Assembly: GCA_903889905.1 (NCBI GenBank)
Contig: CAISZI010000048.1
Coordinates: forward strand, 70,668 to 134,667
Length of the DNA: 64,000 nt
Source: Candidatus Wirthbacteria bacterium
GTDB taxonomy: Bacteria; Patescibacteriota; CG2-30-54-11
Reading direction: 5' to 3'
The notes below the pieces were generated by a model that saw nothing but the letters and a program-made list of their open reading frames with translations, was not told the origin of the DNA and did no database searches. Below are positions 32,596 through 57,709 of this stretch, piece by piece. Every line of letters starts with the position of its first letter. Position 1 is the stretch's first letter. A program made the translations under genes and the position numbers.

Positions 32596-33066
32596 TCAAT
32601 AATCAACAGGATCAACCATTGCTTGATCCAGCACCTCAATCTTTATTTTCCCTGGCAATAAGCTGGTTATTACTTGCAAAAGGTCATCAAAACCCAAACT
32701 TTGCAAATCGAAAACCGTTTTGGCTAGTTCAACAATTGCCAACTGTCTCTCTCTAGACTCAAGCCACAGAGCAGCCCGGTCCAGACTGGCACCAACTCGC
32801 CGCAGCACATTCTGATGAGAATCCTTGGTTTGGTTCAAACCGTCGGTTCTCGTCTCGTAGTCAAATAATTTAGCCATCTCCGTGCGCACGTTTTCCACCG
32901 GGACTCCAGCGCGCAGACTCTCGACAATCGCACTACGATGCTGTTCATACTCGTGATCACCACCGAAGCCAAACTCGACCGCAGATTGTCGCCACGCGGT
33001 GATCAAAACAACCGTGTCGCTTTCCTCCGCTGGATGAAGAGTTTCTGCTTTGGGCAAATTGTCCAT
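32596..33066 (-). CDS. hypothetical protein
   Basis: 156-aa acidic ORF directly upstream of and co-oriented with the dioxygenase. No recognisable motifs. Confidence 0.3.
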   Translation of the reverse strand: MDNLPKAETLHPAEESDTVVLITAWRQSAVEFGFGGDHEYEQHRSAIVESLRAGVPVENVRTEMAKLFDYETRTDGLNQTKDSHQNVLRRVGASLDRAALWLESRERQLAIVELAKTVFDLQSLGFDDLLQVITSLLPGKIKIEVLDQAMVDPVDY

Positions 33067-35039: not shown

Positions 35040-35142
35040 ATAGCAAAAACCTTTCCTACCAACGTATTGGTTTGTTGTTGGTTATTAAGCGATAACAATA
35101 TGGGCGACTATAAGCCGAAAGGGATAATTTGTCTAGATTGAC

Positions 35143-38100
35143 TCAAACATCGAGATCCAAAAAAGCACGATGTTTCAGCTCCGCACCAAGCCTGGCGAGA
35201 CTGTCGGCGCAGGCAATCCGGTCGCGGGTCACGAGCTGGAACAACTCATTCACCAGACTTTCTCGATGGGCAGCAATGGTTTGTAACGATGCTGGTTCAC
35301 GCAGAGACAGTCGCCACATAAGAGCTCTCAATGACGCCAGTCCTTTTGGCCAAAATTGCCGTGATTGCTTTGACGTGAACAAACTTCCGCTATCAGTCAA
35401 AACTGGAAAAGTCTGTCTCACTTTAGCCCATTTGATTTGCGCTTCAATGGTGGCGGTGCTGGCGGCGTCAACGGCAGATGGGGCAATCCGGAAAAATCTG
35501 ACAAGGTCGCGAACCAATTCGTCCTCGCGTTTTATCAGCACCCGTTCCCGCTGTCGTTCCTGCCGCAACCAAGCGTCGACCTCCCCGGCGGAACGAGAGG
35601 ACCATTCGGGATTAAGCAGACATTCGCGCAAATGCTCAAGTTTGCCATCCTGCGGCACCGTGATCAGCAAACTTTTGGCTGCACGGGTAAGGGCGACGTA
35701 GGTGACCCGGCGTTCTTCTTCGGTATCCGCAGCGCTTAGCGCATCAACACTGTCAGCAAGATTTAACAGCACCACATATTTGAATTCACGGCCTTTGGTG
35801 GCATGAATCGTACTCAAAGTGACTTCATCCTCGCTCTCCGCCGCTAAAGATGCTGCGGGTCCGGTGGCGACATGGGTAGAACGAATCAGTTCAAGCAAGG
35901 CCTCCGCCGTTGGCACCGCTTGCGCCACAGTGGCCATCACCTCCAGCACCATGACGTCGGATGCCGTGTCAATATCGTGTCGACTGCTGGCATTGTTTTG
36001 AAAAAACTGCTTTAACTCAAACACATCCACAAGCTGCCTGACAAGCTCACCGGCATGACTGATGCCAGCCTTGGACTCCGACACATTGACAAGTTGTTTG
36101 GCCAAAGTCGCCAGGCTGCGTTGCTTCCACTTTTCCAGTGATGGCCTCCCACACAGGGCCACAAAACTTTCCCGGTCAACTACCTCACGGATCAGTTCAC
36201 TGCCCAAATAACGGTTGGGCTGACGCAGCAGACGTTGCCAGTCATCTGCTGTGGCCAAATCCGGGTCGACCACCACCTGCAGATACGCCCCAAGTAGTTT
36301 GCCCGGCGCAGAACAAAACAGCCGTCGCAAATTCACCGGCGTATGCGCCACCTGCAATTGGTCAAAAATAACAGCCAGTGGAAACTGCAATTCATGGTAG
36401 CGAAACAGCACCGCAAAATCACGCCACCTGGACTGAGAATTCTGTTTTTGTTTCCGAATCCAGTCAGCGGCTGCTTTGGCCTGATCAAAAAGACTGGCGT
36501 GTTTGGACACATCAAAATCTCCAGGTTGCGCCTGTTTTTTGGGTTGAATATCTTTGGCCACGCGTCGTTGATTGTGTTCAATCAGCCAGCGTGAATGCCA
36601 GACCAGATTTTTGGAGGAACGATAGTTGGTCGAAAGTGTGAACTCACGACTACCGGGATAATTCACCGGGAAATCGAGGATATGCGCGATATTGGCCCCA
36701 CGCCAGCCATAAATCATCTGGTCGTCGTCACCCACAATAAACAGATTGTTCTGCGGCAGCCCCAAAACATGCATAAACAGCAGTTGCGACTTGTTCAAAT
36801 CCTGGAATTCATCCACCAGTACATACCGGAAACGCTGCTGGAGCTCCCGACGCAAGCTGGCATCATTGAGCAGTGCCTGCAAACTCAGGTAAATCATATC
36901 GTCAAAAGTGAGCACACGTCGCTCGCTTTGCAGTGCACAAAACCGTTCAAACAGTGGCTGCAGGAGATAAACCCCCTCTTCAAATTCGACAATGGCGCGA
37001 GCATCCAATGGGATTAGTTCGGTTTTGACTTGCTGGATACGGGTCAAAAGCAGATCGGCCGCCTCAGCCAGATGAACCGGCGCAACGTGACAAGCCTCCC
37101 GTACCACTTGCCTGGCGAGCTGCATTGGTTCATGCGTAGCCGTTTCTTCGTCATAAGTCCAGTGCAGATGGTCACGAATGATTTCGTACCCCAAAGCATG
37201 AAACGTACGGATCACCACGCCATCGGATTTGAGTGAGCCGGCAATGCGGACGCCTTTGGCCGCCAGTCGTTCACGCATTTCCCGGGCCGCTTTTTTGTTA
37301 AACGCCAGGGCCAGGATATGGTTGGCTGCAATGCCCTGATTTTGCAGATAAACGATGCGGTTGGTCAAGGTTTTGGTTTTGCCGGCGCCGGCGGGAGCGA
37401 GGACGCGGATCGGTCCATCCATGGGGGTAATTGCGGCTTTCTGGCTGCTGTCGAGCTCACGATCGAGCGGAATAAGGGGAATTTGTGCGGAGGGCAAATG
37501 CCGGCGCAAGATTCGGTCAACACACGAACGTACATTGGAGCGAATTTCCGATGCCCCAAAACGCAGCGTGACATAGCCACTGCGCCGGAATTCTTCTTCG
37601 CGCCATTGGTCACGATTGGAGGCATGTGCCTCCCGGTGATCGCACTCCACGACCACTGGCGATGGTTCCATGTCCAGCACAAAATCCGCACAAAACCGCC
37701 CCAGCTGCACCTGTCGCCGGTATGGAAGTTGGCGGGCGTCGAACTCGGTTTGCAGCTGTTGTTCCAGTGGCGTTTGCAACGGCGCCGTGGTGAGTGCTTT
37801 GTCAATAAAGTGCCAGTTTAAGTTGCTCCAGTAGAGTAATTGCCCGAATTGCTCCAGGGCAAGTTGTTCCAAAATAGTGCCTGTATCCTGATGCAATAAT
37901 GTTCCCAACGCTTTGCTTTCGTCATGCCAAGCAGAAACCGTCAAAGTGTCAAAAAAGGACACCGGAATATTTCTTTGCCGCGCCGGTATGATCACCTGGT
38001 TAACCAGTTTGGACGCCACCTTGGCCAGTTTATCCACGTCAAGGTCGCTCATCATCACCACGTGTTTACAGTGCTTCAGGTTAATGGCAACCCAGGGCTC

Positions 38101-38262
38101 GGCCAGGGCAACAAAGTGAACCGCCTTTTTACCCAAGATCGCTTGCAGTTTTTCGCCAAAAGCGCGTGCATCGACCGACGGGCAGTGGCTCAGATTGAGT
38201 CCAATGCCTTTGAACTGGAAGTGCTCGAGGCGATCAAGGTAAGGAGAAAAGTTGATCATCAA
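35143..38262 (-). CDS. multidomain SF1 helicase: unknown N-terminal domain plus DUF559 (Vsr-like PD-(D/E)xK endonuclease) plus UvrD/REP helicase plus C-terminal domain
   Basis: 1039 aa. DUF559 block FCADFVLD…VVVECDHREAHASNRDQWREEEFRRSGYVTLRF. UvrD motifs: Q-motif, Walker A APAGAGKTKT, motif II VLVDEFQDLN, YRSS, TIHATKGREF, TRAAKSL. Confidence 0.65.
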   Translation of the reverse strand: MMINFSPYLDRLEHFQFKGIGLNLSHCPSVDARAFGEKLQAILGKKAVHFVALAEPWVAINLKHCKHVVMMSDLDVDKLAKVASKLVNQVIIPARQRNIPVSFFDTLTVSAWHDESKALGTLLHQDTGTILEQLALEQFGQLLYWSNLNWHFIDKALTTAPLQTPLEQQLQTEFDARQLPYRRQVQLGRFCADFVLDMEPSPVVVECDHREAHASNRDQWREEEFRRSGYVTLRFGASEIRSNVRSCVDRILRRHLPSAQIPLIPLDRELDSSQKAAITPMDGPIRVLAPAGAGKTKTLTNRIVYLQNQGIAANHILALAFNKKAAREMRERLAAKGVRIAGSLKSDGVVIRTFHALGYEIIRDHLHWTYDEETATHEPMQLARQVVREACHVAPVHLAEAADLLLTRIQQVKTELIPLDARAIVEFEEGVYLLQPLFERFCALQSERRVLTFDDMIYLSLQALLNDASLRRELQQRFRYVLVDEFQDLNKSQLLFMHVLGLPQNNLFIVGDDDQMIYGWRGANIAHILDFPVNYPGSREFTLSTNYRSSKNLVWHSRWLIEHNQRRVAKDIQPKKQAQPGDFDVSKHASLFDQAKAAADWIRKQKQNSQSRWRDFAVLFRYHELQFPLAVIFDQLQVAHTPVNLRRLFCSAPGKLLGAYLQVVVDPDLATADDWQRLLRQPNRYLGSELIREVVDRESFVALCGRPSLEKWKQRSLATLAKQLVNVSESKAGISHAGELVRQLVDVFELKQFFQNNASSRHDIDTASDVMVLEVMATVAQAVPTAEALLELIRSTHVATGPAASLAAESEDEVTLSTIHATKGREFKYVVLLNLADSVDALSAADTEEERRVTYVALTRAAKSLLITVPQDGKLEHLRECLLNPEWSSRSAGEVDAWLRQERQRERVLIKREDELVRDLVRFFRIAPSAVDAASTATIEAQIKWAKVRQTFPVLTDSGSLFTSKQSRQFWPKGLASLRALMWRLSLREPASLQTIAAHRESLVNELFQLVTRDRIACADSLARLGAELKHRAFLDLDV

Positions 38263-39755: not shown

Positions 39756-40349
39756 ATGTTCAAAAAAATCATCCCGGTGGTCAGTCTGGTGGCAACACTA
39801 GGTGTCGCTGCGCCCAGTGCCTTTGCCAGTGTGCAAGTATCGTCGTCAAACACGACCAATTGTTCATTCAGCTCAACTTCTTCAGCCATGTTTTCGTCAC
39901 CATGCTTCCCTGCAATCAGTCCCATGCCCATGATCACTCAGCCCATCTTCCCCGTCGTGCAACCTGTCATTCCTGGTTTGACCAATTTTGGCAGTCAAGG
40001 TCTTTTCTTCTTCTCCCCATTCCTCTCACCTTCGCTGCCGGTAATCATGCCTACCATGCCAAGTGTTTATTTCAGCTCAGGGCTACTCTTTAATAGCCCT
40101 GTTACCACCAATTTGGTGAATATCACCAATCAGGCCTTTGCCCCGCTCTCAATTGCAATTCCCGTCGGGACAACCGTCATCTGGACCAACCATGACACAG
40201 CGCCTCAGTCCATTCTCTTCTTTGATGGGACTTCCTCGGGCCTGCTCAACCCTGGCCAGACGTTTGCCCACACCTTTATGCTGCCTGGCATCATGACCTA
40301 CTCGAGCAGCTTGTATCCAATGCTGATGGGTATGATTACGATTCAGTAA
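39756..40349 (+). CDS. secreted protein with C-terminal cupredoxin-like domain lacking Cu ligands
   Basis: Signal peptide. The C-terminal ~90 aa align to the plastocyanin/amicyanin fold (PVGTTVIWTNHDTAPQSI…GQTFAHTF…GIMTYSSSLYPMLMGMITI), but the Cys and the second His positions are Ser and Tyr. Confidence 0.4.
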   Translation: MFKKIIPVVSLVATLGVAAPSAFASVQVSSSNTTNCSFSSTSSAMFSSPCFPAISPMPMITQPIFPVVQPVIPGLTNFGSQGLFFFSPFLSPSLPVIMPTMPSVYFSSGLLFNSPVTTNLVNITNQAFAPLSIAIPVGTTVIWTNHDTAPQSILFFDGTSSGLLNPGQTFAHTFMLPGIMTYSSSLYPMLMGMITIQ

Positions 40350-41411: not shown

Positions 41412-43550
41412 TCAATCCTGGTTGCGTCGCAAAAAAATCCGCGCCAGACGGATAGCTTCATAGGAATATTTTTCACCCAGATTTTCCTTGGCCGCAACCA
41501 GCGACCAACCCGCTGCAGCAAGTGCACGGTGAATTATTTCCAGCTGACTTTCATCGGGTCGCAGATGTTCGATCGACAAATCTGGTTCCTGCTGCAACAA
41601 TTTCTCAATATGCCCAAGCACGGTGGCTGGAACCAGTCCACGCCGAGCGGCAATGGCCTCCAAACCCAAACCAGACCGAAGCAGTTCCCTTGTCTGCGAA
41701 TAGGTTACCCCAAGGTATTTGGGTGCCGGCGAGCGGGACACGGCGCGTTGAATTTCGTTCACTCCGGTTTCCCGCGCATAATCACGAACCACGCCAAGGA
41801 ATTCCAACCCAAACTGTTCCCATTTTTGGCGACCCACCCCAAAAGTTTGCAACAGACTGGTTTCACTTTGGGGAAAATAAGCGGCCATTTCACGCAGGGT
41901 TTTATCCCCAAAAATCACATAAGGCGGCACGCCACGCTGATCTGCCAGCGACTTGCGCAGGATACGCAGACGATCAAACAGAATGGGATCAACGGGCATC
42001 GCGTCAATGGATTGATCCAATCCTTTGCCAGATTTGGGTTGCATGGACGATGACAAGCTCAAACTTTGCTTCTGCTCCAGGAAATCCCTGCCTTTGGGTG
42101 TCATCAATAGCACTGGATATTCGCCGGTGCTCTGGGCCAGTAAATGCAGGGAAATTAATTGACGGATAATACTTACCAGTTCGGTTTTCTTGTGTGCCTT
42201 AAGTGTGCCAAACACTGGCAGCAAGTGGTGATTAAAACGTTCGCTGCGTTCGTCTGATTTTCCCAGCAGCACTGACGCCACATAACCAATACCAAAACTC
42301 TCACGCGTTGCCTGGACAGCCGTCAAAATCGTCCGCGTCACATCGGTCGCATCTACCTGCACAGTCTCGCCCAGGCAATTGTCACAGTTGTCACACTTGT
42401 CCCGCGGCATCACTTCGCCAAAATGCCCGAGCAAATACTGACGACGGCAAGTGGAAAGGTCTCCAAACCTCAACACTTCTTCCAACTTGGCCCAGGCTTT
42501 TTGTTGTTCGGCTTCGGTTTCGAGCTGGTCAATGAAAAAAGCGTGTTTGCGACGATCGCCGTGTGAAAAAAACAGCACACATTCCGCTGGTAGTCCATCC
42601 CGGCCAGCGCGCCCGGTTTCCTGATAATACGCCTCCACCGACTTGGGTAAATCACAGTGCACAACAAGACGAACATTGGATTTATCGATGCCCATGCCAA
42701 AGGCAATGGTGGCAATGATCATGTCGATTTCGTCCCTGATAAACTGGTCCTGCACGTGCGACCGAGTAGCGCTATCCAGTCCACCATGGTACGCCGCTGC
42801 CTTGAAACCGCTGTGCTGCAAACTCTCGGCCAGTTCCTCGGTACCTTTGCGCGAAAAACAGTAGACGATACAGCTCTGGCCACGGTATTTGTCCAGAAGG
42901 TCATGTAAACTGGTGGCCATGCCTTTTTTGGGCATTACCACATACTTCAAATTAGGCCGGTCAAAACTGGCAAGGAAAACCGCCGGCTCCCGCAGCTGCA
43001 GTTGCGTGACAATGTCGGCCCGTACCTTATCCGTGGCAGTCGCCGTCAGCGCCATCATTGGAACGCGTGGAAACCACTGCCGCAAAATGCGTAATTCGCG
43101 ATAATCCGGCCTGAAATCGTGGCCCCATTCCGAAATACAGTGTGCCTCATCAATGGCGATCAAACTGATGGGCAAGTCACGGATAAATGAGGCAAACCCC
43201 ATGGCCGCGAGCCGCTCTGGGGCAATGTACAAAATCTTGATCTGGCCCGCTTGTGCGGCGCGCTGGACTTGGGCAATTTCGGCGCCAGAAAGTGAACTGT
43301 TGATCAAAGCCACGGCCACACCACTTACCCGCAGTTGATCCACCTGGTCTTTCATCAAGGCAATCAGCGGCGACACCACGATCGCCATCCCGGTCATTTT
43401 GATCGCCGGCAGTTGGTAACACAGCGATTTGCCGCCACCAGTGGGCATGATCGCCAGGGTATCGCGTCCCTGCATCACACTGGCGATGATCTCCTGCTGC
43501 AACGGGTAAAATGAATCGTACCCAAACACTTGCTTCAATAATTCCTGCAT
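41412..43550 (-). CDS. recQ: ATP-dependent DNA helicase RecQ with RQC, HRDC and an extra C-terminal extension
   Basis: FGYDSFYPLQQEII, Walker A MPTGGGKSLCYQLPA, DEAH (IDEAHCISEWGHDFR), Zn-binding CxxC pair (CRRQ…CDNCDNC), HRDC-like region. Total 712 aa. Confidence 0.85.
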   Translation of the reverse strand: MQELLKQVFGYDSFYPLQQEIIASVMQGRDTLAIMPTGGGKSLCYQLPAIKMTGMAIVVSPLIALMKDQVDQLRVSGVAVALINSSLSGAEIAQVQRAAQAGQIKILYIAPERLAAMGFASFIRDLPISLIAIDEAHCISEWGHDFRPDYRELRILRQWFPRVPMMALTATATDKVRADIVTQLQLREPAVFLASFDRPNLKYVVMPKKGMATSLHDLLDKYRGQSCIVYCFSRKGTEELAESLQHSGFKAAAYHGGLDSATRSHVQDQFIRDEIDMIIATIAFGMGIDKSNVRLVVHCDLPKSVEAYYQETGRAGRDGLPAECVLFFSHGDRRKHAFFIDQLETEAEQQKAWAKLEEVLRFGDLSTCRRQYLLGHFGEVMPRDKCDNCDNCLGETVQVDATDVTRTILTAVQATRESFGIGYVASVLLGKSDERSERFNHHLLPVFGTLKAHKKTELVSIIRQLISLHLLAQSTGEYPVLLMTPKGRDFLEQKQSLSLSSSMQPKSGKGLDQSIDAMPVDPILFDRLRILRKSLADQRGVPPYVIFGDKTLREMAAYFPQSETSLLQTFGVGRQKWEQFGLEFLGVVRDYARETGVNEIQRAVSRSPAPKYLGVTYSQTRELLRSGLGLEAIAARRGLVPATVLGHIEKLLQQEPDLSIEHLRPDESQLEIIHRALAAAGWSLVAAKENLGEKYSYEAIRLARIFLRRNQD

Positions 43551-45701: not shown

Positions 45702-46889
45702 ATGCAAATCAAGAAAATTCTGCCAATTATCACCCCAGCCGTGCTACTGATTACGCTCGCCGCCATGACCGCCACCCCCCTGGTCACCGCCGCCATCGTC
45801 ACCTGCAGCAACACCAATACCCAAAGTGGCTCTGTCAATCACTGTACCAATACGGTTTTCCTGCATGCAGCCATTTCCAATGCCCAATCCGCAATGGTCG
45901 CAAATGCCAGCAATCAGACAGGCACTACCGGTGGCAATGTGATCAGTAATATCAATGGCAATGTAACCTACACTACGGGTTCTGTGGACACAACTGCCAG
46001 CGCCCAGACCACAGTCAATCAGACCACCAATACCATTGCCGCTGCGACCGACGCCATTGCGGTCTCTGCCAGCAATGACAAAACGGGTGCGAACTCAACA
46101 AATACGGCTGCCAATACCGTTGTCGTAGATCAGACGGTTGCCACCATCAATACTATGCAAACAACCAGTACCGCCGTCGTTAATAACAATTCCGGTCAAA
46201 ACGCCGTCACCGCCGTCAACGGCAATGTGACGGGCTCGACTGGCCCAGTCAAATCCGCGGTCACCCAAGCCACCACTGGCAACGTTGTCCAAAACAATAT
46301 CGCGCCGCCAGTTGCCATTACTGTCAATGCGAACAACACCAATACGCAATCCAACTCAACCAATACCACCACCAACACCACGAGCAGTACGACGAACGTA
46401 GCCAACAGCAGCACCTGCGGTGTCAACAACGTTGATCTCGTCGCCAACAACTCCGGCAATAACGCAAACGGTTCCGTCAATGGCAACATTTTCATCCATA
46501 GTGGCGGCACAACCTCCCAGCTGAATCAAGGTTCTCAATGCAATCAGGCCACCACCGCCGTCAACACACCGCCTACCACCCCTGTTGTTCCGACGACTCC
46601 CCCAACGACGCCCACCACACCTGGGACCACCACCACGCCGACGACCCCACCCGATGCAACCAAACCCGCGGGACAAGTGCTGGGTGCCGAGACAACCAAT
46701 ACCAATACCCCTGCCGATACCACTTTGACCAAGCCCAGAGTTTTGGCAACTGTGGTTACCAAACTTGCCACGACCGGGTCTGACCTCAGCGTCGTCATCC
46801 TGATCATTTGCCTGGTTACAGGAGGCTTTGGGTTTTACCAACTAAGTCGCCAGCTACGCCAGGGTAAAGACATTTTCTCGAATCGTTAA
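45702..46889 (+). CDS. Thr/Asn-rich cell-surface protein with C-terminal LAxTG-type sorting signal
   Basis: Signal peptide (ILPIITPAVLLITLAAMTATPLVTA), ~300 aa of T/N/S/V low complexity, Pro/Thr-rich stalk. C-terminal LATTG plus hydrophobic helix plus RQLRQGK tail (sortase-substrate architecture). Confidence 0.5.
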   Translation: MQIKKILPIITPAVLLITLAAMTATPLVTAAIVTCSNTNTQSGSVNHCTNTVFLHAAISNAQSAMVANASNQTGTTGGNVISNINGNVTYTTGSVDTTASAQTTVNQTTNTIAAATDAIAVSASNDKTGANSTNTAANTVVVDQTVATINTMQTTSTAVVNNNSGQNAVTAVNGNVTGSTGPVKSAVTQATTGNVVQNNIAPPVAITVNANNTNTQSNSTNTTTNTTSSTTNVANSSTCGVNNVDLVANNSGNNANGSVNGNIFIHSGGTTSQLNQGSQCNQATTAVNTPPTTPVVPTTPPTTPTTPGTTTTPTTPPDATKPAGQVLGAETTNTNTPADTTLTKPRVLATVVTKLATTGSDLSVVILIICLVTGGFGFYQLSRQLRQGKDIFSNR

Positions 46890-50206: not shown

Positions 50207-53200
50207 CTAAAACACACTCTTCCCATCCCCATAATACCCATCAAACACATGCGAGAAGATCGCCCCGCACTTCTCTTCGTAGAGTTTCTTGTCATAGATC
50301 GCCGGCAAGTGTTCGAGCGAGTCTTTAATTGCAACCTCAATTGATGCCCTGGCAAACTCTTTGGCTCTCCAATCAAGCACCAGAAGGTCTTTGAGCTTCT
50401 GAAGGAGCTCACGTGCTACCTTTTTGACATCTCCCTGCTCCTGCTTGTTGAGTTTTGGGTCTGGCTTGGTCAGGAGGTCAAAGATAGCCAGTTCTTCCTC
50501 GTCACTTAGCCCTTCCCTGACTGCTCTTTTTTCTTCCTCTTCCAGATCCGCGGCAAAGGTGACCAAGTCCTGGTAGATCTCCTCCAATGAATGGCTCCCC
50601 GCGTTGTATTCGGCGACCATGTCTTTGAATTTCTTCACCAAATCGATCCGGGTACGGTTCATCTCGAATAGATGATTCACTTTGCCTTCGAGCAGCTTCT
50701 GCAAGAGGTCAATGGCATGGCGTCTGCGGCCTTCCTCGAACTGCTTCGCGAGCTTGTCAAAGTCAATTTTGCTTAGATCCATGGGTTGGGGGGATGTAAT
50801 CGAATACCCTGTTGTCCCGATCGTGTCATCGAGAAGGCCATCTACCTTGCGGACGATGCTGGTGATATCGACATCCGGTCGACGGGATTGGATGTTCTCG
50901 GCAATGGTCAGATACAGCTTGACCCGGTCATAGTAGGCAGCTACCCTGCCATCTGGTAGAACAGCTTTATAGAGCTGGTAGCACCCCTGCGTCATCTCCA
51001 GATAGTCTTTGCGGGTCTGCTCTGAGCTCATCAGGGCTTCAGAGGCGTTGTTGACTAGTTTTAGAAGCTCAACACGCTCCTTCCCAAGCATCTCTGCCGC
51101 TTGGATGCCGAGCTTGGCACAGAATGTGTTCAGTTTATCGAATCGATCTTCCAATTCCGCCAGAATCTCGTCTTTTTCCTTGATCGGGGTATCCTCTCCA
51201 TCTCCTCCCTGGTCGGCACCATAGATTGCCAGAGCCTTCTGAAGATTCCTAAAGACACCGATGTAATCGACAATGATACCATTGGGTTTGGTCTTGAAGA
51301 CACGATTGGCCCGGGCGATGGTCTGCATCAAGGTATGGTTCTTCATAGGACGGTCAAGGTAGACCGTCGAACAGGACTGGGCATCAAAGCCAGTCATCCA
51401 CATGGCGCAGACAAAGGCAATTCGAAGAGGATGATCCGCATCTTTGAATTCTTCCGCCAAGTCTTCCTTGTTCATGCGATCCCGGTGGGGTTTGGCATCA
51501 ATGCCATACTTTCGGGCATCATCGATCTCGTTCTGGCCTTGGGAGACCACCACAGCCATGTCAGTTGATTCCATGAAGTTGATTTTCGTCTCCAATGTTT
51601 CCAGCTTCTCGTCCCTGGCGTAGTAGAGCTCTTTGCGCAGGTCCTTGATCTTGGCATCCCAGTACTTCTTGACCTTTTCGAACATGCGATAGGTGGTCAG
51701 TTTATCAATGCTGACGATCATAGCCTTGCCAGGATAGCCCCGCCCGACAATGTGATCCACGATATCGCTCGCAATTCGCTCCAGACGTTCATCCCGGGTA
51801 ATCAAGTGGTATTGCTTGGAAAAATACCGCTGGAGCTTCAATTCTTGCTCATCGCTGAGCTCCTCTTGCTCCAGTAATTCATCCAGTTTGTCCGTTAGCT
51901 CTTGCTCATCGAGCTGGAGCTCTGGAATACGATTTTCATAAAACAGTGGCACGGTGGCATTGTCATCCACAGATTGCTTGAAGTTATAAATACTGACGTA
52001 ATCTCCAAATGTCTCCCGTGTCTTTTCCTCTCCGGCACCTTTGATCAAAGGGGTGCCTGTAAAGGCAATGAAACTGGCATGGGGAAGGCCTTCGCGCATG
52101 TTCATGGCCAAGGTGTCGTATTGGGAACGGTGGGCTTCGTCAGCCATGACAATGATGTCATTGCGGTCAGATAGGAGATCCCGATCACGGAACTTGTGGA
52201 TCAAGGTAAAGACATAACGGTGATCCTCGTGCAAAAGCTTCTTCAGATGTTCTGCCGACTCAGCATGAACCTGATCTTCTGGTTCGGAGACGGCTCCCGC
52301 TCCAGCAAAATTTTGATAAATTTGTTTATCAAGCTCTTTACGGTCAGTTAGCACCACAAATGTCCAGTTACCCGGCAGCTTCCTGAAGATCTTCTGGGAG
52401 TAAAAGATCATGGAGTAGCTCTTGCCGCTCCCCTGCGTATGCCAAAAGACGCCGGCGGCACCCTGGCCCTTGGGTTTGGCTTTGAATACCTCGATGGCTT
52501 GATTAACACCCAAAAACTGATGATTCTTGGCGACAATCTTGGCGATGCCACCGCGAACTTCTACAAACAGGGTAAAATTCTCAATCAAATCCAATAGTCT
52601 CGTCTTGTCACAAGTTCCACGGATCATGGCTTCCAGGGATATCTGAGGCTTCTCGTCTTCCTTCTCTACCTTTTTCCACTGGCTGAAATGCTCCCAGGTG
52701 GCGCTGACGCTACCCATGCGGCTATCCGTACCATTGGTGAGGATGATCATGGCGTTATACCAAAACAGCTGCGGGATGGTGTCCTTGTAATCCCGGATAT
52801 TGTCATCGAAGGCTTCCTTGACTGAATGGCTGGCGGATTTGTTCTCAATAAGCACCAAAGGGATGCCATTCACATACCCGATCAGGTCCGTGCGACGGGT
52901 ATAGTACTTACCGGTGATCCAAAGCTGCGAAACCAACAAGAAGTCATTATCGTTGGGGTTATCCCAATCAATGACCCGCAGATTAACTGTTTGTTCTGTT
53001 CCTTGATCATCCTTGAAACTAACCTTGATGCCATCGTGGATGAGTGCGTAGACCTCTTGATTGGCCCTGGTTAGGCTTTTGGTACTGCGATCGAGGGTAA
53101 GTTGGGCTATGGCATCATTGAGGACTTGGGAAGGAACATCGGGGTTAAGTTTTGTCAGAGCTTCCCGAAGGCGCGGCAAGAGCAGAACATCAGCTCGGAT

Positions 53201-53326
53201 TTGGCGCCCAAGGATACTGGTTGGGCCGGGGATTTCGTCAAAACAATCGACATGGGACCATTTCATGCCTTGGAAGAGGTCAATGCCAGACTTCTCAACG
53301 AGGGAATCTTCGGAGAATGGGTTCAT
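50207..53326 (-). CDS. hsdR: type I restriction enzyme R (endonuclease/translocase) subunit
   Basis: Start at MNPFSED (ATGA overlap with the upstream gene). N-terminal PD-(D/E)xK, SF2 helicase motifs (HTQGSGKSYSM Walker A, DEAH-like MADEAHRSQ), long C-terminal helical domain. 1039 aa from this start. Confidence 0.85.
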   Translation of the reverse strand: MNPFSEDSLVEKSGIDLFQGMKWSHVDCFDEIPGPTSILGRQIRADVLLLPRLREALTKLNPDVPSQVLNDAIAQLTLDRSTKSLTRANQEVYALIHDGIKVSFKDDQGTEQTVNLRVIDWDNPNDNDFLLVSQLWITGKYYTRRTDLIGYVNGIPLVLIENKSASHSVKEAFDDNIRDYKDTIPQLFWYNAMIILTNGTDSRMGSVSATWEHFSQWKKVEKEDEKPQISLEAMIRGTCDKTRLLDLIENFTLFVEVRGGIAKIVAKNHQFLGVNQAIEVFKAKPKGQGAAGVFWHTQGSGKSYSMIFYSQKIFRKLPGNWTFVVLTDRKELDKQIYQNFAGAGAVSEPEDQVHAESAEHLKKLLHEDHRYVFTLIHKFRDRDLLSDRNDIIVMADEAHRSQYDTLAMNMREGLPHASFIAFTGTPLIKGAGEEKTRETFGDYVSIYNFKQSVDDNATVPLFYENRIPELQLDEQELTDKLDELLEQEELSDEQELKLQRYFSKQYHLITRDERLERIASDIVDHIVGRGYPGKAMIVSIDKLTTYRMFEKVKKYWDAKIKDLRKELYYARDEKLETLETKINFMESTDMAVVVSQGQNEIDDARKYGIDAKPHRDRMNKEDLAEEFKDADHPLRIAFVCAMWMTGFDAQSCSTVYLDRPMKNHTLMQTIARANRVFKTKPNGIIVDYIGVFRNLQKALAIYGADQGGDGEDTPIKEKDEILAELEDRFDKLNTFCAKLGIQAAEMLGKERVELLKLVNNASEALMSSEQTRKDYLEMTQGCYQLYKAVLPDGRVAAYYDRVKLYLTIAENIQSRRPDVDITSIVRKVDGLLDDTIGTTGYSITSPQPMDLSKIDFDKLAKQFEEGRRRHAIDLLQKLLEGKVNHLFEMNRTRIDLVKKFKDMVAEYNAGSHSLEEIYQDLVTFAADLEEEEKRAVREGLSDEEELAIFDLLTKPDPKLNKQEQGDVKKVARELLQKLKDLLVLDWRAKEFARASIEVAIKDSLEHLPAIYDKKLYEEKCGAIFSHVFDGYYGDGKSVF

Positions 53327-53330
53327 GTGA
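53281..53330 (-). repeat. copy A of a ~48-bp direct repeat comprising the hsdR start codon and first 16 codons
   Basis: 53281-53330 is about 84% identical to 54541-54590. Copy A is the authentic hsdR 5' end (MNPFSEDSLVEKSGID). Confidence 0.6.
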
Positions 53331-54453
53331 TGAAACTCAGATAATTTTCTTGATTCACGACCAGAAACGATGCCTCGGGATAGGTGGATTGAAAAATGGC
53401 AGGCGCTTTGGCCGTAGCCTTGCCCCACTTGAACTCGTACGCATCGATCTTGCCACCCTGCTCCTCGATCCAGTCGATCTCCTGCTGGTCATAGGTACGC
53501 CAGAAATAATTGCTCGTAGAAAAATGCTTATAGGTCTGATATTTGATACGCTCGCTAACGAGAAAATTTTCCCAGAGCGCACCCTGGTCATTGCGGGAAT
53601 CGAGCGGATTAAACATACTGATGACGGCATTACGCACACCATTGTCGTAGAAAAAGTATTTGGGCTTGGAGGTTAGTTCTTTGCGCAGGTTGCGGCTGAA
53701 ACCGCCGAGACGGTAGAGGGTGAATGTTTGCTCCAGGAGCCACAGGTAACGCCCAACTGTTTTGACATCGACCTCGAGCTTTTGAGCCAGCTCGGTATAG
53801 GATACCTCTGCCCCGACCTGAAAGGCGACAAGCTTGAGCAGCTTGACCAGAGTCTGCGGGCTACGGACCTGCTCCAGGGCAAATATATCCTTCAGCAGAT
53901 AAGATCCGACTAGATCGAGCAGGTACTCCTCGCGGTCTGCGTCAGTTTTTTGATTGAGCACGTCCGGATAGTTGCCATAGATGAGGTAGGAGGTCAGGGA
54001 CGATTTAAGTTCATAGGGATTGAACCTGGCAGAGAGCTCCATCTGGGACAGAGGATAGAGGTGCAGCGTTTTTTTGCGACCGACCAGCGGCTCACCAACC
54101 TGCCGGGCCAATTCAAAGGAGGACGATCCGGTAGCGATTACCCGGATGGGTTTGATCTGGTCCACGATGATCTTGAGCCCCATGCCGATATAGGGAACCA
54201 TCTGTGCCTCGTCAATCACAATGAGTTCATACCCCGCACAGAATTCCCTGATCCGGTCAAAGTCCTGTGAACCCAACACTTCCCGTACCTGAATATTGTC
54301 TCCAGACACGAGCAGATATTTCCATTTCGTGGTACTCAAGTACCGCTCGATCAGCGTGGTCTTGCCAACCCGACGGGGACCAAAGAGCAAAAGTACTCGA
54401 TTTGGCTCAAGATAGGATTCCAGATCCTGACAGTAGCGGGGTACGTATTCCAT
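53323..54453 (-). CDS. AAA-family ATPase with C-terminal DUF4143 domain
   Basis: 376 aa. Walker A GPRRVGKTT, Walker B VIDEAQ, conserved DUF4143-type C-terminal region. Stop overlaps the hsdR ATG (ATGA). Confidence 0.7.
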   Translation of the reverse strand: MEYVPRYCQDLESYLEPNRVLLLFGPRRVGKTTLIERYLSTTKWKYLLVSGDNIQVREVLGSQDFDRIREFCAGYELIVIDEAQMVPYIGMGLKIIVDQIKPIRVIATGSSSFELARQVGEPLVGRKKTLHLYPLSQMELSARFNPYELKSSLTSYLIYGNYPDVLNQKTDADREEYLLDLVGSYLLKDIFALEQVRSPQTLVKLLKLVAFQVGAEVSYTELAQKLEVDVKTVGRYLWLLEQTFTLYRLGGFSRNLRKELTSKPKYFFYDNGVRNAVISMFNPLDSRNDQGALWENFLVSERIKYQTYKHFSTSNYFWRTYDQQEIDWIEEQGGKIDAYEFKWGKATAKAPAIFQSTYPEASFLVVNQENYLSFIT

Positions 54454-54489
54454 ATTTTTAGCTCAATTTAAGGATTCGTGTTCCTCAAA

Positions 54490-54518
54490 ATTATACCAAA
54501 ACGTGGATTTAGCGTCAA
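54490..54518 (-). promoter_or_regulatory. sigma70-type promoter TTGACG-N17-TATAAT driving the DUF4143 ATPase gene
   Basis: Minus-strand GTTGACGctaaatccacgttttggTATAATttt. The -10 lies ~37 nt upstream of the ATG at 54453. Confidence 0.45.
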
Positions 54519-54540
54519 CTTACTTAGTATTCAGTCAAGG

Positions 54541-54590
54541 AAATGCCGAATTGTTCGACGAGGTAATCTTCGGAGAATTGGTTCATCGTG
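54541..54590 (-). repeat. copy B of the hsdR 5'-end repeat (remnant start MNQFSEDYLVEQFGIS then stop)
   Basis: Minus strand reads ATGAACCAATTCTCCGAAGATTACCTCGTCGAACAATTCGGCATTTCCTTGACTGAATACTAA. This mirrors the hsdR N-terminus. Its ATG overlaps the toxin stop as ATGA, as at the true hsdR junction. Confidence 0.6.
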
Positions 54591-54957
54591 GATACACGCC
54601 TGTTGCTAAAGTCTTCAGAAAATCATCAATTCGTTGCTGAGACTCGCATTCCTGCTGGCCATGCATATAAATCTCGATGAAAACAATTTTTGCAGCGATC
54701 ACCCCAAAGGCAAACACCAGTCTCATCTTGCTTGAACCTTTGAGGCTGCGGACCATGAGGCGGGTCTTGATAATCAATAACTGTCTGGCCGTATCACGAT
54801 GGAGAATATCGTACCGATTATTGTGGTCAAAATCGACACCAACGATAAATTTACGGAAATTATCCAGATCCTGCGTCAGCGAGGCGCATTTTTTGGATAA
54901 TTTTTTCAGATCACGATCAAAAGCCGGCAGTGACTCGAACTCAAATCTCGTCGTCAT
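54583..54957 (-). CDS. RelE/ParE-superfamily toxin (Panacea-associated toxin, PanT)
   Basis: 124 aa. FxFxxxFxRDLKKLSKK N-terminus and …KMRLVFAF…IEIYMHGQQ C-terminal region typical of RelE/ParE/HigB. 17-nt overlap with the upstream antitoxin gene. Confidence 0.5.
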   Translation of the reverse strand: MTTRFEFESLPAFDRDLKKLSKKCASLTQDLDNFRKFIVGVDFDHNNRYDILHRDTARQLLIIKTRLMVRSLKGSSKMRLVFAFGVIAAKIVFIEIYMHGQQECESQQRIDDFLKTLATGVYPR

Positions 54958-55684
54958 ACTGCCTCACCGAGTAGGGATCATTGCGATAGAAAACACTTTC
55001 GTAGGAAATTTCCTCGCCGTCGTCGTGCGCCAGCCAGGGGACATCGCCATGCGAGTAGTCACTCAATTCCTTCGCCGATTTGTCTGCAAGTTGGGTCAGC
55101 ACACGATCAATCAGATCGAGCTCACGACCACTCAGTTTGGTCAAGTCAGCCACAGCGCGAGGCAGGAATTTGCGCTGGTCAAACATAAAATATTTGCTTT
55201 TGACTTCCTCCATCTCACCGTCCTGCTTCATTTGCTCAATCACCTTGATAAACTCTTTTGGGGTGGGACCATGAAGATTTTTGATATAGGTGAGGCCCAT
55301 GAGCTGTTCTTCGTATTTTTCGTAGTAGTCAAAATCGATGAAGTACAGCAATTTGTACAAAACTGTGAGACCCACGTTGGGTTTGGCGCCCACCTTGCCC
55401 AGGATATAGAGCAGGACCTGTTTGAATTTGTCCAGATGCTGCTGGGGGATATCGATGCGCATGGTCGAAGGAACGCTGGCAGGCGAAGTAGCGGCTGCCA
55501 GCGAAAAAATCTGCTCCAGTTTTTCACGTTCGGCGAGGGTCAGCGGACGCTTGCCTTGTTCAATTTTGACCAAAGTCGGACGGGAGACACCGAGCCGCGT
55601 GGCCAATTCTTGCTGCGACATGTGATATTGCTGGCGTAGTGAATGGATTTCGATGGTGGTTGGGGTAGTCATTGGAGTATCCAC
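54941..55684 (-). CDS. XRE-HTH plus Panacea (DUF4065, SocA-like) domain antitoxin
   Basis: 247 aa. HTH LRQQYHMSQQELATRLGVSRPTLVKIEQGKR, then a DUF4065-type domain (VLYKLLYFIDFDYYEKYEEQLMGLTYIKNLHGP). Confidence 0.6.
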   Translation of the reverse strand: MDTPMTTPTTIEIHSLRQQYHMSQQELATRLGVSRPTLVKIEQGKRPLTLAEREKLEQIFSLAAATSPASVPSTMRIDIPQQHLDKFKQVLLYILGKVGAKPNVGLTVLYKLLYFIDFDYYEKYEEQLMGLTYIKNLHGPTPKEFIKVIEQMKQDGEMEEVKSKYFMFDQRKFLPRAVADLTKLSGRELDLIDRVLTQLADKSAKELSDYSHGDVPWLAHDDGEEISYESVFYRNDPYSVRQYDDEI

Positions 55685-55718
55685 ATATTCATATTGATGA
55701 CACTATTTTTGTGAAATA

Positions 55719-55748
55719 ACAATACATGGATAGCGAAACAATGTCAAT
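55719..55748 (-). promoter_or_regulatory. candidate promoter TTGACA-N18-TATTGT for the PanA-toxin pair
   Basis: Minus strand cattGACAttgtttcgctatccatgTATTGTtatt in the 77-bp hsdS-panA spacer. Confidence 0.3.
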
Positions 55749-55761
55749 GTTTACAAATATT

Positions 55762-56901
55762 TTACAATAATTTTACAGAGACCTCTCCACTCATCAATCT
55801 TGGCAATAACAAATTCCTCGTTATTCTAAAATTTTGGCTCTGCAAGTGAAGCTTCTGAATCAAGTCAAACATTGGCCTGACAAGTTTTGAAAATCGATCC
55901 AGACAAATAACCGGAGGTTGCGAGAGCAAGTATTGGTTGAAGCAACTTTCCTGCACGCGTTGGCGTCCAGACGCCCCCGTCATGCTCTTTATTGCATGTT
56001 TTCGAAATTCGTCACTACGAGCCAATAAATATACATACTCAGGTGTAAGTGAATGTGATCGCATAACAATATATTCTGTCGATCCAAAAGCCACCGCTTT
56101 CTCGTCAGGCAGAAATTGCACAAAACCCGTTTTACCATTTTCCAGACAGGGTGTTATCCTCGCAAGTAGTGTGTCTCTATTTTGAAATTTAGCACCGCTA
56201 TTGCCTGTTCGAGATTCAACATCGGTGATTATTATTGAATCCGTTGAAAGACATCCCATTGGGACAAACGCCTTTTCTCCATCACGGGGAACAGATACTC
56301 TTGGGTTAAAATCAACACATTCAACCACTTTCTTCACCTCCCACCCCTCCGGCACCATCCCCAATTCCGTCCCCGAATCCACCATTTTGACCTTCTCATG
56401 CCCCGGGAACCGGAACTCCACAAACCACTCCCGATAGAGCCGCCTCGCCATTTCTTCCAGGATCTGGATGCGGCGGGTGTTGTTTTCGATTAGGTCGTCG
56501 TAAGCGGAAAGAATGGAGGCGATTTTCTTTTGAACATGCAATACTGGAACATCGATCTCAATCGTCGACAAATGATTTCGATTTAATGTTGGTACTCCTG
56601 CGCCTGCGTTGAAACGAGAAAAATCTAATCCAATCAATTTAAAATATACATATCTAGGGTCATTGCCCTTGAAATCCTTAACCCAAAGAGACGTATTATG
56701 GGGCCAGTACGGATCTTTAACATATTGAACCGTTCCTAACGATCCGCTGCGTCCAATTACAACGCCAGGGGCATCCGCTTTAAATTCATGATGATACCCG
56801 ATTATCGAAGTGGATCCGACCACTGGATAAATACCATCATTCATATTGATTCTTGTAAGATCGAAACCCCTTTGTAGAGTAATGAAATCATCAAGTCTCA
56901 T
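55762..56901 (-). CDS. hsdS: type I restriction-modification specificity subunit (two TRDs)
   Basis: 379 aa. Two target-recognition domains separated by conserved helical repeats (…LEEMARRLYREWFVEFRFPGHE…, C-terminal …NLLLPRLMSGEV). Confidence 0.8.
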   Translation of the reverse strand: MRLDDFITLQRGFDLTRINMNDGIYPVVGSTSIIGYHHEFKADAPGVVIGRSGSLGTVQYVKDPYWPHNTSLWVKDFKGNDPRYVYFKLIGLDFSRFNAGAGVPTLNRNHLSTIEIDVPVLHVQKKIASILSAYDDLIENNTRRIQILEEMARRLYREWFVEFRFPGHEKVKMVDSGTELGMVPEGWEVKKVVECVDFNPRVSVPRDGEKAFVPMGCLSTDSIIITDVESRTGNSGAKFQNRDTLLARITPCLENGKTGFVQFLPDEKAVAFGSTEYIVMRSHSLTPEYVYLLARSDEFRKHAIKSMTGASGRQRVQESCFNQYLLSQPPVICLDRFSKLVRPMFDLIQKLHLQSQNFRITRNLLLPRLMSGEVSVKLL

Positions 56902-57706: not shown

Positions 57707-57709
57707 CTA

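What the first reader, a model, noticed from the sequence alone, without database searches (positions are those of the whole stretch)
35143..38262. 1039-aa DUF559-endonuclease/UvrD-helicase fusion with uncharacterised N- and C-terminal domains
A Vsr-like DUF559 nuclease domain is fused N-terminal to a complete SF1 UvrD/REP helicase. It is flanked by ~170 aa and ~230 aa of unassigned sequence, as a single monocistronic gene. Nuclease-helicase fusions of this kind resemble defense effectors (Nhi or Hachiman/Gabija-like logic) as much as repair enzymes. This architecture is not a characterised family.
Basis: partly seen in the sequence, partly recalled or inferred. Interest (0 to 1): 0.5.

Follow-up and report, generated by a model that had tools for sequence, protein, structure and literature searches.

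The report
Rare stand-alone nuclease–UvrD helicase fusion
The gene is real and encodes one large protein that joins a DNA-cutting domain to a DNA-unwinding motor, belongs to a rare, horizontally spread and unstudied family, and is more likely a single-gene defence against foreign DNA than a housekeeping repair enzyme, though this is not proven.

Summary
The ORF at 35143-38262 (-) is real: 1038 aa from the ATG at 38259. It has four modules. (1) Residues 1-158 have no Pfam match; they fold like a DnaC/DnaI/IstB/DnaA-type AAA+ core but have no Walker A loop. (2) Residues 163-252 are a DUF559 (Vsr-superfamily) nuclease with its D/E/D/H motif intact. (3) Residues 268-870 are a complete SF1A helicase, far closer to PcrA/UvrD/Rep than to GajB. 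(4) Residues 871-1038 are a weakly conserved helical tail (about 170 aa, not 230).

The N-domain occurs only in this helicase family: 84 of 1.84 billion cluster representatives. The closest relative is 39% identical. Relatives turned up in 436 stretches of 185,579 species genomes. The helicase tree mixes phyla, and no partner gene is conserved. A few members add TIR, LRR or ankyrin modules. Five of eight Pfam-annotated contexts are restriction-modification/GmrSD/STAND/TIR or mobile islands, but other contexts are housekeeping, as are the window's immediate neighbours.

It fails the membership tests for Gabija, Nhi, Hhe, AddA/RecB and UvrD/PcrA/Rep. Best reading: an accessory single-protein helicase-nuclease, probably defensive (about 0.5). 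The main rival is a genome-maintenance enzyme (about 0.3). It is a new variant of a known kind, of moderate interest.

The parts
35143..38262 (-). Whole ORF (TTG at 38262; probable ATG start at 38259; stop codon at 35143-35145); 1038-aa four-module protein
37786..38259 (-). N-terminal domain, residues 1-158. It has an alpha/beta AAA+-like core (DnaA/DnaC/DnaI/IstB-type) without a Walker A P-loop. H123, L133, E136 and Q137 are invariant in the family. The domain is found only in this helicase family.
37504..37773 (-). DUF559 / Vsr-superfamily (PD-(D/E)xK-like) nuclease domain, residues 163-252
   Evidence: Pfam DUF559 E 9e-9, above cutoff; MTES_1575 below cutoff. Family profile hits PDB 3hrl, E 1e-6. 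Pairwise alignment to 3hrl.
37624..37686 (-). Nuclease motif DFVLDMEPSPVVVECDHREAH, containing D192, E205, D207 and H212
   Evidence: Conservation in 45 members: D192 44/45; E205 42 E and 3 D; D207 35 D and 10 E; H212 39/45. Coordinates verified.
35650..37458 (-). SF1A UvrD/PcrA/Rep-type helicase core, residues 268-870 (domains 1A/1B/2A/2B)
   Evidence: Pfam UvrD-helicase and UvrD_C. PDB profile: PcrA 7e-94, UvrD 1e-76, Rep 3e-84, GajB only 3e-18. Foldseek on the full model finds UvrD/PcrA/UvrD1/Rep.
37372..37398 (-). Walker A / motif I, APAGAGKTK (K294)
36796..36819 (-). Motif II (Walker B), LVDEFQDL
36694..36735 (-). Motif III, VGDDDQMIYGWRGA
35146..35649 (-). C-terminal region, residues 871-1038. 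A conserved FLxExxLNP-type motif directly follows domain 2A, then come long, weakly conserved helices rich in L/A/R/E.
   Evidence: AF2 secondary structure H891-925, H938-950, H970-987, H990-1033, pLDDT 50-90. Conservation. No Pfam or PADLOC hit.
35107..35135 (-). Promoter-like site (TAGACA-17-TATAGT) between the helicase stop and the downstream ABC-transporter ATPase. It suggests, but does not prove, that the transporter genes are transcribed separately.
   Evidence: the number of sites in the region does not exceed the shuffled expectation

Best explanation
The gene encodes a self-contained, accessory helicase-nuclease.

Shown: it has an intact PcrA/UvrD-type SF1A ATPase/helicase core, an intact DUF559 (Vsr-superfamily) nuclease site immediately N-terminal to helicase domain 1A, a family-specific N-terminal domain with a degenerate AAA+ fold (no P-loop), and a helical C-terminal tail. 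It has no conserved partner gene.

Inferred mechanism: like other SF1A enzymes, the motor loads on a 3' single-stranded tail, nick, gap or DNA end and moves 3'->5' using ATP. The nuclease is tethered at the trailing 1A side, so it would cut the DNA the motor threads or exposes. This is analogous in logic to RecB/AddA, but in one chain and with a Vsr-type nuclease. The pseudo-AAA+ N-domain and the helical tail would act as regulatory or oligomerisation modules, since canonical ATP binding by the N-domain is ruled out by its sequence.

Inferred biological role: a single-gene defence or conflict system that degrades invading or replicating foreign DNA. It would work like Nhi, Hna or HmaA without being related to them.
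For: Domain anatomy and intact motifs. N-domain fold and lack of a Walker A loop.

Accessory nature:
- The best relative is only 39% identical.
- The N-domain is in only 84 of 1.84 billion cluster representatives, all of this helicase family or fragments of it.
- 436 related stretches were found in 185,579 species genomes, none above 40% identity.
- Two MAGs each carry two loci (DATHTH01: L003 and L011; JAUVLC01: L049 and L050).
- The NJ tree nests Bacteroidota and a Firmicute inside an Anaerolineales subclade, and does not group the window with the Patescibacteria member.
- The nearest relatives of the window's flanking ABC transporter keep the transporter pair but have no helicase beside it.

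No conserved partner gene.

Conflict-type signals:
- A C-terminal TIR, C-terminal ankyrin repeats or N-terminal LRRs occur in some members.
- L085 has SNF2, an MmeI-like R-M enzyme and GmrSD. L097 has PLD-SNF2, an MmeI-like R-M enzyme, GmrSD, a KAP NTPase and TIR-STAND. L094 has a type I R-M system, SNase, ParB and a Mu-like transposase with IstB. L086 has a serine recombinase, an NB-ARC STAND protein and a REase-like gene. L087 has TIR-COR/Roc and TIR_2.
- The window itself carries a complete type I R-M system about 12 kb away.

Single-protein nuclease-helicases are established defence effectors (Nhi, Hna, HmaA; PMC11232893).
Against: - The immediate neighbours in the window are housekeeping genes: an SDR, an AHSA1-like protein, RecQ, and an ABC transporter ATPase with its FtsX permease.
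- Codon usage and GC3 equal the window average, so there is no sign of recent acquisition.
- PADLOC scans of 219 neighbour proteins in species-genome loci found only one type III R-M system, two type II REases, some methyltransferases and otherwise generic hits. This is little different from a control set around the nuclease-less relatives.
- L014, L017 and L095 share a conserved housekeeping position next to the Suf operon.
- The nuclease-less sister clades show conserved housekeeping synteny.
- The motor is much closer to the repair/replication helicases PcrA, UvrD and Rep than to GajB.
- No family member was found on viral contigs, and none of the island contexts was tested for mobility.
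- Nothing here was tested experimentally. The geometry of nuclease relative to motor is inferred from domain order, not from inspected coordinates.
Confidence: 0.5

Rival explanations
1. Genome-maintenance enzyme: a single-chain helicase-nuclease used by the host for repair, recombination or replication-fork processing, for example end resection or removal of damaged or mismatched strands. It would be retained in scattered lineages as an alternative to multi-subunit RecBCD/AddAB/AdnAB or to UvrD plus a separate nuclease.
For: - Both catalytic modules belong to repair-associated superfamilies. The helicase core is closest to PcrA/UvrD/Rep (E 7e-94 to 1e-76), against 3e-18 for GajB.
- The window context is housekeeping, with RecQ 3 kb away, and codon usage is native.
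- There is conserved housekeeping synteny in L014/L017/L095 and in the nuclease-less clades.
- A small PC4/YdbC-like gene lies directly upstream in L003, L006, L008, L020 and L087. That PC4/YdbC-like proteins bind ssDNA is from general knowledge.
- PADLOC hits among neighbours are no more frequent than in the control set.
Against: - The family is extremely sparse and patchy for a maintenance function, and the tree mixes phyla.
- No association with repair genes was seen in any neighbourhood.
- The RecQ adjacency is unique to the window.
- TIR, LRR and ankyrin fusions are hard to explain for a repair enzyme.
- Five of eight annotated contexts are defence or mobile islands.
- NCBIfam equivalog scores for Rep, PcrA, UvrD, AddA and RecB are 3-7 fold below their cutoffs.
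Confidence: 0.3
2. Cargo or maintenance factor of a mobile genetic element, or a selfish nuclease. Some DUF559 proteins are EDxHD homing endonucleases. The helicase would assist element replication, transfer or homing rather than host defence.
For: DUF559 includes a homing-endonuclease family (PMC9403480, citing Taylor et al. 2011; PMC3424549 lists 3r3p in the same clade). L086 and L094 carry a serine recombinase, and ParB plus a Mu-like transposase with IstB, near the gene. Extra stand-alone DUF559 genes lie directly upstream in L008, L026 and L048.
Against: The window and most loci have no integrase, transposase or repeat boundary next to the gene. No family member is on IMG/VR viral contigs. 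Composition is native. The gene is not inserted in another gene or in an intein/intron context.
Confidence: 0.08
3. An orphan or fused Gabija-type GajB, or another already catalogued defence helicase.
For: The best PADLOC hits are GajB models, E 1.5e-67 over residues 268-867.
Against: The GajB hits cover only the generic UvrD core. Solved GajB structures score far below PcrA/UvrD. There is no GajA (OLD ATPase-TOPRIM) gene nearby: the adjacent ATPase is an ABC-transporter subunit with its FtsX permease. The N-terminal 262 aa and the C-terminal tail hit no PADLOC model.
Confidence: 0.02

Closest known systems
Nhi (nuclease-helicase immunity; Bari et al. 2022, as summarised in PMC11232893)
   Same: A single polypeptide with an N-terminal restriction-endonuclease-fold nuclease followed by an SF1 helicase, acting alone with no partner gene. 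This is the closest match in logic and in domain order.
   Different: Nhi has an HsdR-like nuclease and a DUF2075-type SF1 helicase and is about 610 aa. Here the nuclease is DUF559/Vsr-type and the motor is a PcrA/UvrD-type SF1A. There is also an extra pseudo-AAA+ N-domain and a helical tail, for 1038 aa in total. No DUF2075 hit appeared.
Hhe (Gao et al. 2020) / the MTES_1575 architecture (HEPN, SF1 helicase, Vsr REase; PMC3710099)
   Same: It combines an SF1 helicase with a Vsr-superfamily (DUF559/MTES_1575) nuclease in one protein. Hhe is a listed defence system.
   Different: In Hhe the helicase is a DUF4011/AAA_11/AAA_12 (Upf1-like) type and the Vsr domain is C-terminal, with HEPN and wHTH modules. 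Here the order is reversed, the motor is UvrD-type, MTES_1575 scores below its cutoff in the query (24.1 against 38.2 bits), and the nuclease part hits no PADLOC model.
AddA / RecB / AdnB helicase-nucleases
   Same: A UvrD-like SF1A motor is covalently linked to a PD-(D/E)xK-fold nuclease that cuts the strand the motor handles. Foldseek and the PDB profile detect these through the motor.
   Different: Those nucleases are C-terminal RecB-family domains, and the enzymes need partner subunits (AddB, RecC/RecD, AdnA). NCBIfam scores are about 100 bits against cutoffs of about 700. No partner gene is present.
PcrA / UvrD / Rep
   Same: These are the closest solved relatives of the motor (E 7e-94 to 1e-76), with all SF1A motifs and the 1A/1B/2A/2B layout.
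   Different: Equivalog scores are 200-268 bits against cutoffs of 911-1168. The query has extra N-terminal domains, and a helical tail follows domain 2A. From general knowledge, PcrA/UvrD carry an RNA-polymerase-binding C-terminal domain there; this was not compared here.
Gabija GajB
   Same: A UvrD-family helicase used in defence. It gives the best PADLOC HMM hits.
   Different: There is no GajA partner. GajB is about 500 aa and has no nuclease. Similarity to solved GajB is much weaker than to PcrA.
DUF559 proteins, Vsr and the EDxHD homing endonuclease I-Bth0305I
   Same: The same nuclease superfamily, with the acidic/His motif conserved.
   Different: Those are small stand-alone or intron/intein-borne enzymes. 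There is no Pfam Vsr (PF03852) hit and no adjacent Dcm-type cytosine methyltransferase gene.
DnaC / DnaI / IstB / DnaA AAA+ modules (for the N-domain only)

Membership tests
Gabija (GajA + GajB) | Adjacent GajA (OLD-family ATPase-TOPRIM nuclease) gene | tested here: not met
   The neighbours are an SDR and an ABC ATPase with an FtsX permease. No conserved partner was found in 32 family loci.
Gabija (GajA + GajB) | A GajB-type UvrD-like helicase of about 500 aa, more similar to GajB than to housekeeping SF1A helicases | tested here: not met
   PADLOC GajB models hit the core. However, the PDB profile gives PcrA 7e-94 against GajB 3e-18, and the protein is 1038 aa with extra domains.
Nhi | DUF2075-type SF1 helicase with an HsdR-like N-terminal nuclease (as summarised in PMC11232893) | tested here: not met
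   Pfam shows UvrD-helicase, UvrD_C and DUF559, with no DUF2075. The N-terminal 262 aa hit no PADLOC model.
Hhe / MTES_1575-type | DUF4011 plus an AAA_11/AAA_12 helicase with a C-terminal Vsr (MTES_1575) nuclease | tested here: not met
   AAA_11 and AAA_12 score below cutoff and only inside the UvrD core. There is no DUF4011. The nuclease is N-terminal, and MTES_1575 scores 24.1 bits against a cutoff of 38.2. No PADLOC hit to the nuclease part.
AddA / RecB / AdnB | C-terminal RecB-family nuclease, a partner subunit gene, and a score above the equivalog cutoff | tested here: not met
   NCBIfam addA 99.9 bits against 707.65; recB 99.6 against 696.05. The nuclease is N-terminal DUF559. No partner gene.
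UvrD / PcrA / Rep orthologues | Score above the NCBIfam equivalog cutoff | tested here: not met
   rep 268.3 bits against 951.45; pcrA 252.8 against 911.2; uvrD 200.2 against 1144.45.
SF1A UvrD-like helicase superfamily | Motifs Q, I, Ia, II, III, IV, V and VI, with Pfam UvrD-helicase and UvrD_C above cutoff | tested here: met
DUF559 (Vsr-superfamily nuclease) | Pfam PF04480 above the gathering score, with the conserved D...ExD...H motif | tested here: met
   35.6 bits against 20.6. D192, E205, D207 and H212 are present. Family profile to PDB 3hrl, E 1e-6.
Vsr very-short-patch repair endonuclease | Pfam Vsr (PF03852) match and association with a Dcm-type cytosine methyltransferase | tested here: not met
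   No PF03852 hit at E<=1. No cytosine methyltransferase next to the gene. T:G mismatch specificity cannot be tested with these tools.
AAA+ ATPases (N-domain) | Walker A GxxGxGK[ST] and a Walker B acidic pair | tested here: not met
   The fold matches, but the family alignment has no P-loop and has QD (SD in the query) at the Walker B position. It is therefore AAA+-like in fold only.
Defence systems in general | Experimental protection against phage or plasmids | not testable with these tools
Defence systems in general | Statistical enrichment next to known defence genes | tested here: inconclusive
   Five of eight Pfam-annotated contexts are defence or mobile islands (plus the window). But PADLOC scans of 219 neighbour proteins in species genomes show few true defence hits, close to a control set.

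The most novel reading that the evidence does not exclude
A previously unrecognised single-protein immune system in which the family-specific N-terminal domain acts as the sensor. This domain is a degenerate copy of the DnaC/DnaI/IstB helicase-loader AAA+ fold. It would act either as a decoy for phage proteins that hijack or inhibit the host helicase loader or replicative helicase, or as a module that docks on stalled or foreign replication forks. Sensing would license the UvrD-type motor to feed DNA to the Vsr-type nuclease.
Probability: 0.1. Interest if true: 0.7.

Novelty: new variant of a known kind. Interest (0 to 1): 0.42.

Why it matters
If the defence reading holds, this adds a new architecture to the short list of single-protein nuclease-helicase immune effectors (Nhi, Hna, HmaA, Hhe). 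It would be built on a PcrA/UvrD-type motor and a Vsr-type nuclease, with a helicase-loader-like pseudo-ATPase as a possible sensor. It occurs in poorly studied lineages (a probable Patescibacteria MAG here; Anaerolineales, Bacteroidota and Calditrichota elsewhere). If the repair reading holds, it would be a minimal one-chain alternative to RecBCD/AddAB-type machines. Either way the family and its N-domain have no Pfam model, no characterised member and no literature in the searched library. It is a clean target for a simple phage-challenge plus point-mutant experiment.

Tried and rejected
- Gabija/GajB membership was rejected: no GajA, and the motor is closer to PcrA.
- Hhe and Nhi membership were rejected: wrong helicase class and domain order, and no PADLOC hit to the nuclease part.
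- AddA/RecB and UvrD/PcrA/Rep orthology were rejected on NCBIfam cutoffs.
- A conserved partner gene was sought by all-against-all clustering of neighbour ORFs in 80 and then 32 loci. None was found. Only lineage-specific synteny appeared, plus a 73-aa PC4-like gene in a few Anaerolineales loci.
- Phage origin: the IMG/VR scan returned only generic UvrD helicases at 30% identity or less.
- Recent horizontal acquisition in the window: GC3 and codon usage equal the window mean.
- Looking up the window's own contig by exact protein failed for two proteins. The organism is therefore only inferred, from about 60% identity of the flanking permease to Patescibacteria/Doudnabacteria MAG proteins.
- A degenerate nuclease in the about 100-aa spacer of L018, L027 and L031 was not detectable.
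- The AFDB50 fold library was unavailable.
- Literature searches for DUF559+UvrD, Vsr+UvrD-like+defence and MTES_1575 found nothing on this architecture.
- Interdomain geometry could not be inspected because model coordinates are not exposed.
Full report
**Observation.** The minus-strand ORF 35143..38262 is real. It has 1039 codons from a TTG, and its second codon is ATG (38259), giving 1038 aa. An identical 1038-aa protein is in the public collection (P0001). Pfam places DUF559 at residues 163-252 (35.6 bits, cutoff 20.6), UvrD-helicase at 270-534 (E 6e-58) and UvrD_C at 541-868 (E 6e-27). Nothing significant covers residues 1-160 or 871-1038. The C-terminal unassigned stretch is therefore about 170 aa, not about 230. 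The gene runs in the same direction as its neighbours, with gaps of 116 and 103 nt. A promoter-like site sits in the downstream gap, but the scan is not above chance, so 'monocistronic' is plausible and unproven.

**Catalytic modules.**
- In an alignment of 45 full-length relatives, all SF1A motifs are invariant and present in the query: Walker A APAGAGKTK, DEFQD, GDDDQMIYGWRGA, NYRS, TIHATKGREF and EEERRVTYVALTRA.
- The nuclease residues D192, E205, D207 and H212 are conserved and present in the query.
- A family profile against PDB sequences gives PcrA 7e-94, Rep 3e-84 and UvrD 1e-76, but GajB only 3e-18. The DUF559 part matches the DUF559 structure 3hrl at 1e-6.
- The AlphaFold model (pLDDT 84, pTM 0.76) matches UvrD, PcrA, UvrD1 and Rep structures.
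- NCBIfam equivalog scores for Rep, PcrA, UvrD, AddA and RecB are 3-7 fold below their cutoffs. The protein is a UvrD-superfamily member, not an orthologue of any named helicase.

**The flanking regions.**
- Residues 1-158 model confidently on their own (pLDDT 90).
- The strand and helix order is that of an AAA+ core. Only about four residues separate strand 1 from helix 1, so there is no GxxGxGK[ST] loop. The Walker B position reads QD in the family and SD in the query.
- The domain is therefore AAA+-like in fold only and cannot bind ATP in the canonical way. Its invariant residues are H123, L133, E136 and Q137.
- A profile of this domain searched against 1.84 billion cluster representatives finds only 84 proteins. 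All are long helicase fusions of this family or short fragments.
- Residues 871-1038 begin with a conserved FLxExxLNP-type motif and continue as long, weakly conserved helices.
- Neither flank hits any PADLOC model.

**The family.**
- The nearest relative is 39% identical.
- A scan of one genome per species (185,579 species) found 436 related stretches, none above 40% identity. They come from Anaerolineales (many), Bacteroidota, Calditrichota, Patescibacteria, Clostridia, a Virgibacillus isolate and others.
- Local HMMs show that N-domain/nuclease/helicase/tail is the dominant architecture.
- A sister set of about 850-aa proteins has the N-domain and helicase but no nuclease. It occurs in KSB1, Cytophagia, Ignavibacteria and some Anaerolineales.
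- Other relatives have DUF559 plus helicase behind a different N-terminus.
- In an NJ tree of the helicase core, the nuclease-bearing clade is monophyletic and the window protein is its deepest branch. A Bacteroidota member and a Syntrophothermus member nest inside an Anaerolineales subclade, and the Patescibacteria member groups with a Bacteroidetes one. This indicates transfer across phyla, with the caveat that these are MAG bins.
- Two MAGs each carry two loci.
- Rare variants add a C-terminal TIR domain, C-terminal ankyrin repeats or N-terminal LRRs.
- No member is on IMG/VR viral contigs.

**Genomic context.**
- In the window the neighbours are housekeeping genes: an SDR, an AHSA1-like protein, a second SDR and RecQ upstream; an ABC ATPase, an FtsX permease, a LigB-type dioxygenase and a metallophosphatase downstream.
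- A complete type I R-M system lies about 12 kb away: HsdR 50207-53428, HsdS 55762-56901 and HsdM 57710-59266.
- The gene's GC3 and codon usage equal the window mean.
- The flanking permease is at most about 60% identical to proteins of Patescibacteria/Doudnabacteria MAGs. Those genomes keep the ATPase-permease pair but have no helicase beside it.
- Clustering of neighbour ORFs finds no conserved partner in the full-length family. It finds only a 73-aa PC4/YdbC-like gene upstream in a few loci, stand-alone DUF559 genes directly upstream in three loci, and lineage-specific synteny next to the Suf operon in L014, L017 and L095.
- Of eight contexts with Pfam annotation, five are defence or mobile islands:
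  - L085: SNF2, an MmeI-like R-M enzyme and GmrSD.
  - L097: PLD-SNF2, an MmeI-like R-M enzyme, GmrSD, a KAP NTPase and TIR-STAND.
  - L094: type I R-M, SNase, ParB and a Mu-like transposase with IstB.
  - L086: a serine recombinase, an NB-ARC STAND protein and a REase-like gene.
  - L087: TIR-COR/Roc and TIR_2.
- The other three contexts are not defence islands: L095, L096 and the window.
- PADLOC scans of 219 neighbour proteins from species-genome loci gave only one type III R-M system, two type II REases, some methyltransferases and generic hits. This is similar to a control set around the nuclease-less relatives.
- The defence-island association is therefore suggestive but not established.

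**Mechanism.**
- Shown: there is an intact SF1A motor, an intact Vsr-superfamily nuclease site just N-terminal to domain 1A, a pseudo-AAA+ N-domain, a helical tail, and no partner gene.
- Inferred from established SF1A behaviour (PcrA, UvrD, Rep, RecB): the motor loads on 3' tails, nicks, gaps or ends and moves 3'->5'. The nuclease, tethered at the trailing 1A side, cuts DNA that the motor threads or exposes.
- Also inferred: the N-domain and the tail regulate or oligomerise the enzyme. The geometry is deduced from domain order, because coordinates could not be inspected.

**Biological role.** I rate a single-gene defence or conflict role at about 0.5. The grounds are the family's rarity, patchiness and cross-phylum transfer, the paralogues, the TIR/LRR/ankyrin fusions, the island contexts, and the precedent of Nhi, Hna and HmaA (PMC11232893). 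I rate a genome-maintenance helicase-nuclease at about 0.3. The grounds are the repair-type families, the housekeeping contexts, the native composition, the conserved synteny in some lineages and the PC4-like neighbour. A mobile-element or selfish role gets about 0.08, and an orphan Gabija component about 0.02.

**Comparison and novelty.** The protein works most like Nhi (N-terminal nuclease plus SF1 helicase, acting alone). It shares domain families with Hhe/MTES_1575-type proteins (SF1 helicase plus Vsr nuclease; PMC3710099). It fails the defining features of both, and of Gabija, AddA/RecB and UvrD/PcrA/Rep. Source annotations call family members only 'UvrD-helicase domain-containing', 'DUF559 domain-containing' or 'helicase/very-short-patch-repair endonuclease'. 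No paper on the architecture was found. I classify it as a new variant of a known kind (nuclease-helicase fusion proteins). Its most distinctive feature is the family-exclusive helicase-loader-like pseudo-ATPase domain. Interest is moderate, because no result here decides between defence and repair.

Noticed in passing
window 50207-59266 (-): A complete type I restriction-modification system: HsdR 50207-53428, HsdS 55762-56901 (low GC, 0.434) and HsdM 57710-59266. A DUF4143/AAA_14 ATPase ORF (53323-54453) overlaps the annotated HsdR start, and an unannotated ORF lies at 56891-57706. The system is about 12 kb (about 10 genes) from the helicase.
   Followed up: partly
L003 3277-3501; L006 9637-9858; L008 2920-3144; L020 5247-5468; L087 8645-8866: A 73-74 aa PC4/YdbC-like gene sits just upstream of the helicase in several Anaerolineales-type loci. 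Pfam PC4 is on record for the L087 copy. It may be a lineage-specific accessory or plain synteny.
   Followed up: partly
L008 3300-3677 (and 2425-2850); L026 6458-6808; L048 1156-1533; L015 5706-6062: Stand-alone DUF559 genes of 116-141 aa lie next to full-length family members. In L008, L026 and L048 they are directly upstream and abut or overlap the helicase start. So some loci carry a second, free copy of the nuclease module.
   Followed up: partly
L085 and L097: Two unrelated metagenome contigs place the helicase in the same type of island, with an SNF2 (or PLD-SNF2) helicase, an MmeI/Eco57I-like R-M enzyme and GmrSD. This recurring combination might reflect a shared mobile island.
   Followed up: no
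window 41412-43550 (-): A RecQ helicase with RQC, HRDC and a C-terminal HTH_40 domain lies 3 kb upstream of the finding. This adjacency is not seen in any other family locus.
   Followed up: partly
window 45702-46889 (+): A 395-aa ORF with no Pfam hit has the most deviant codon usage in the window (distance 0.371, against 0.13-0.30 for the rest).
   Followed up: no
window 39756-40349 (+) and 32596-33066 (-): ORFs of 197 aa and 156 aa near the finding have no Pfam match. Their coding status was not checked.
   Followed up: no
L018 9878-12871; L027 2238-5168; L031 9944-12886: Bacteroidota members have the N-domain and helicase separated by a spacer of about 100 aa. The spacer is neither DUF559 nor any Pfam family. 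It could be a replaced or decayed effector module.
   Followed up: partly
window, whole: The source organism is not among the species-representative genomes searched, and exact look-ups of two window proteins found no record. The flanking permease is at most about 60% identical to Patescibacteria/Doudnabacteria MAG proteins, so the taxonomic assignment is tentative.
   Followed up: partly
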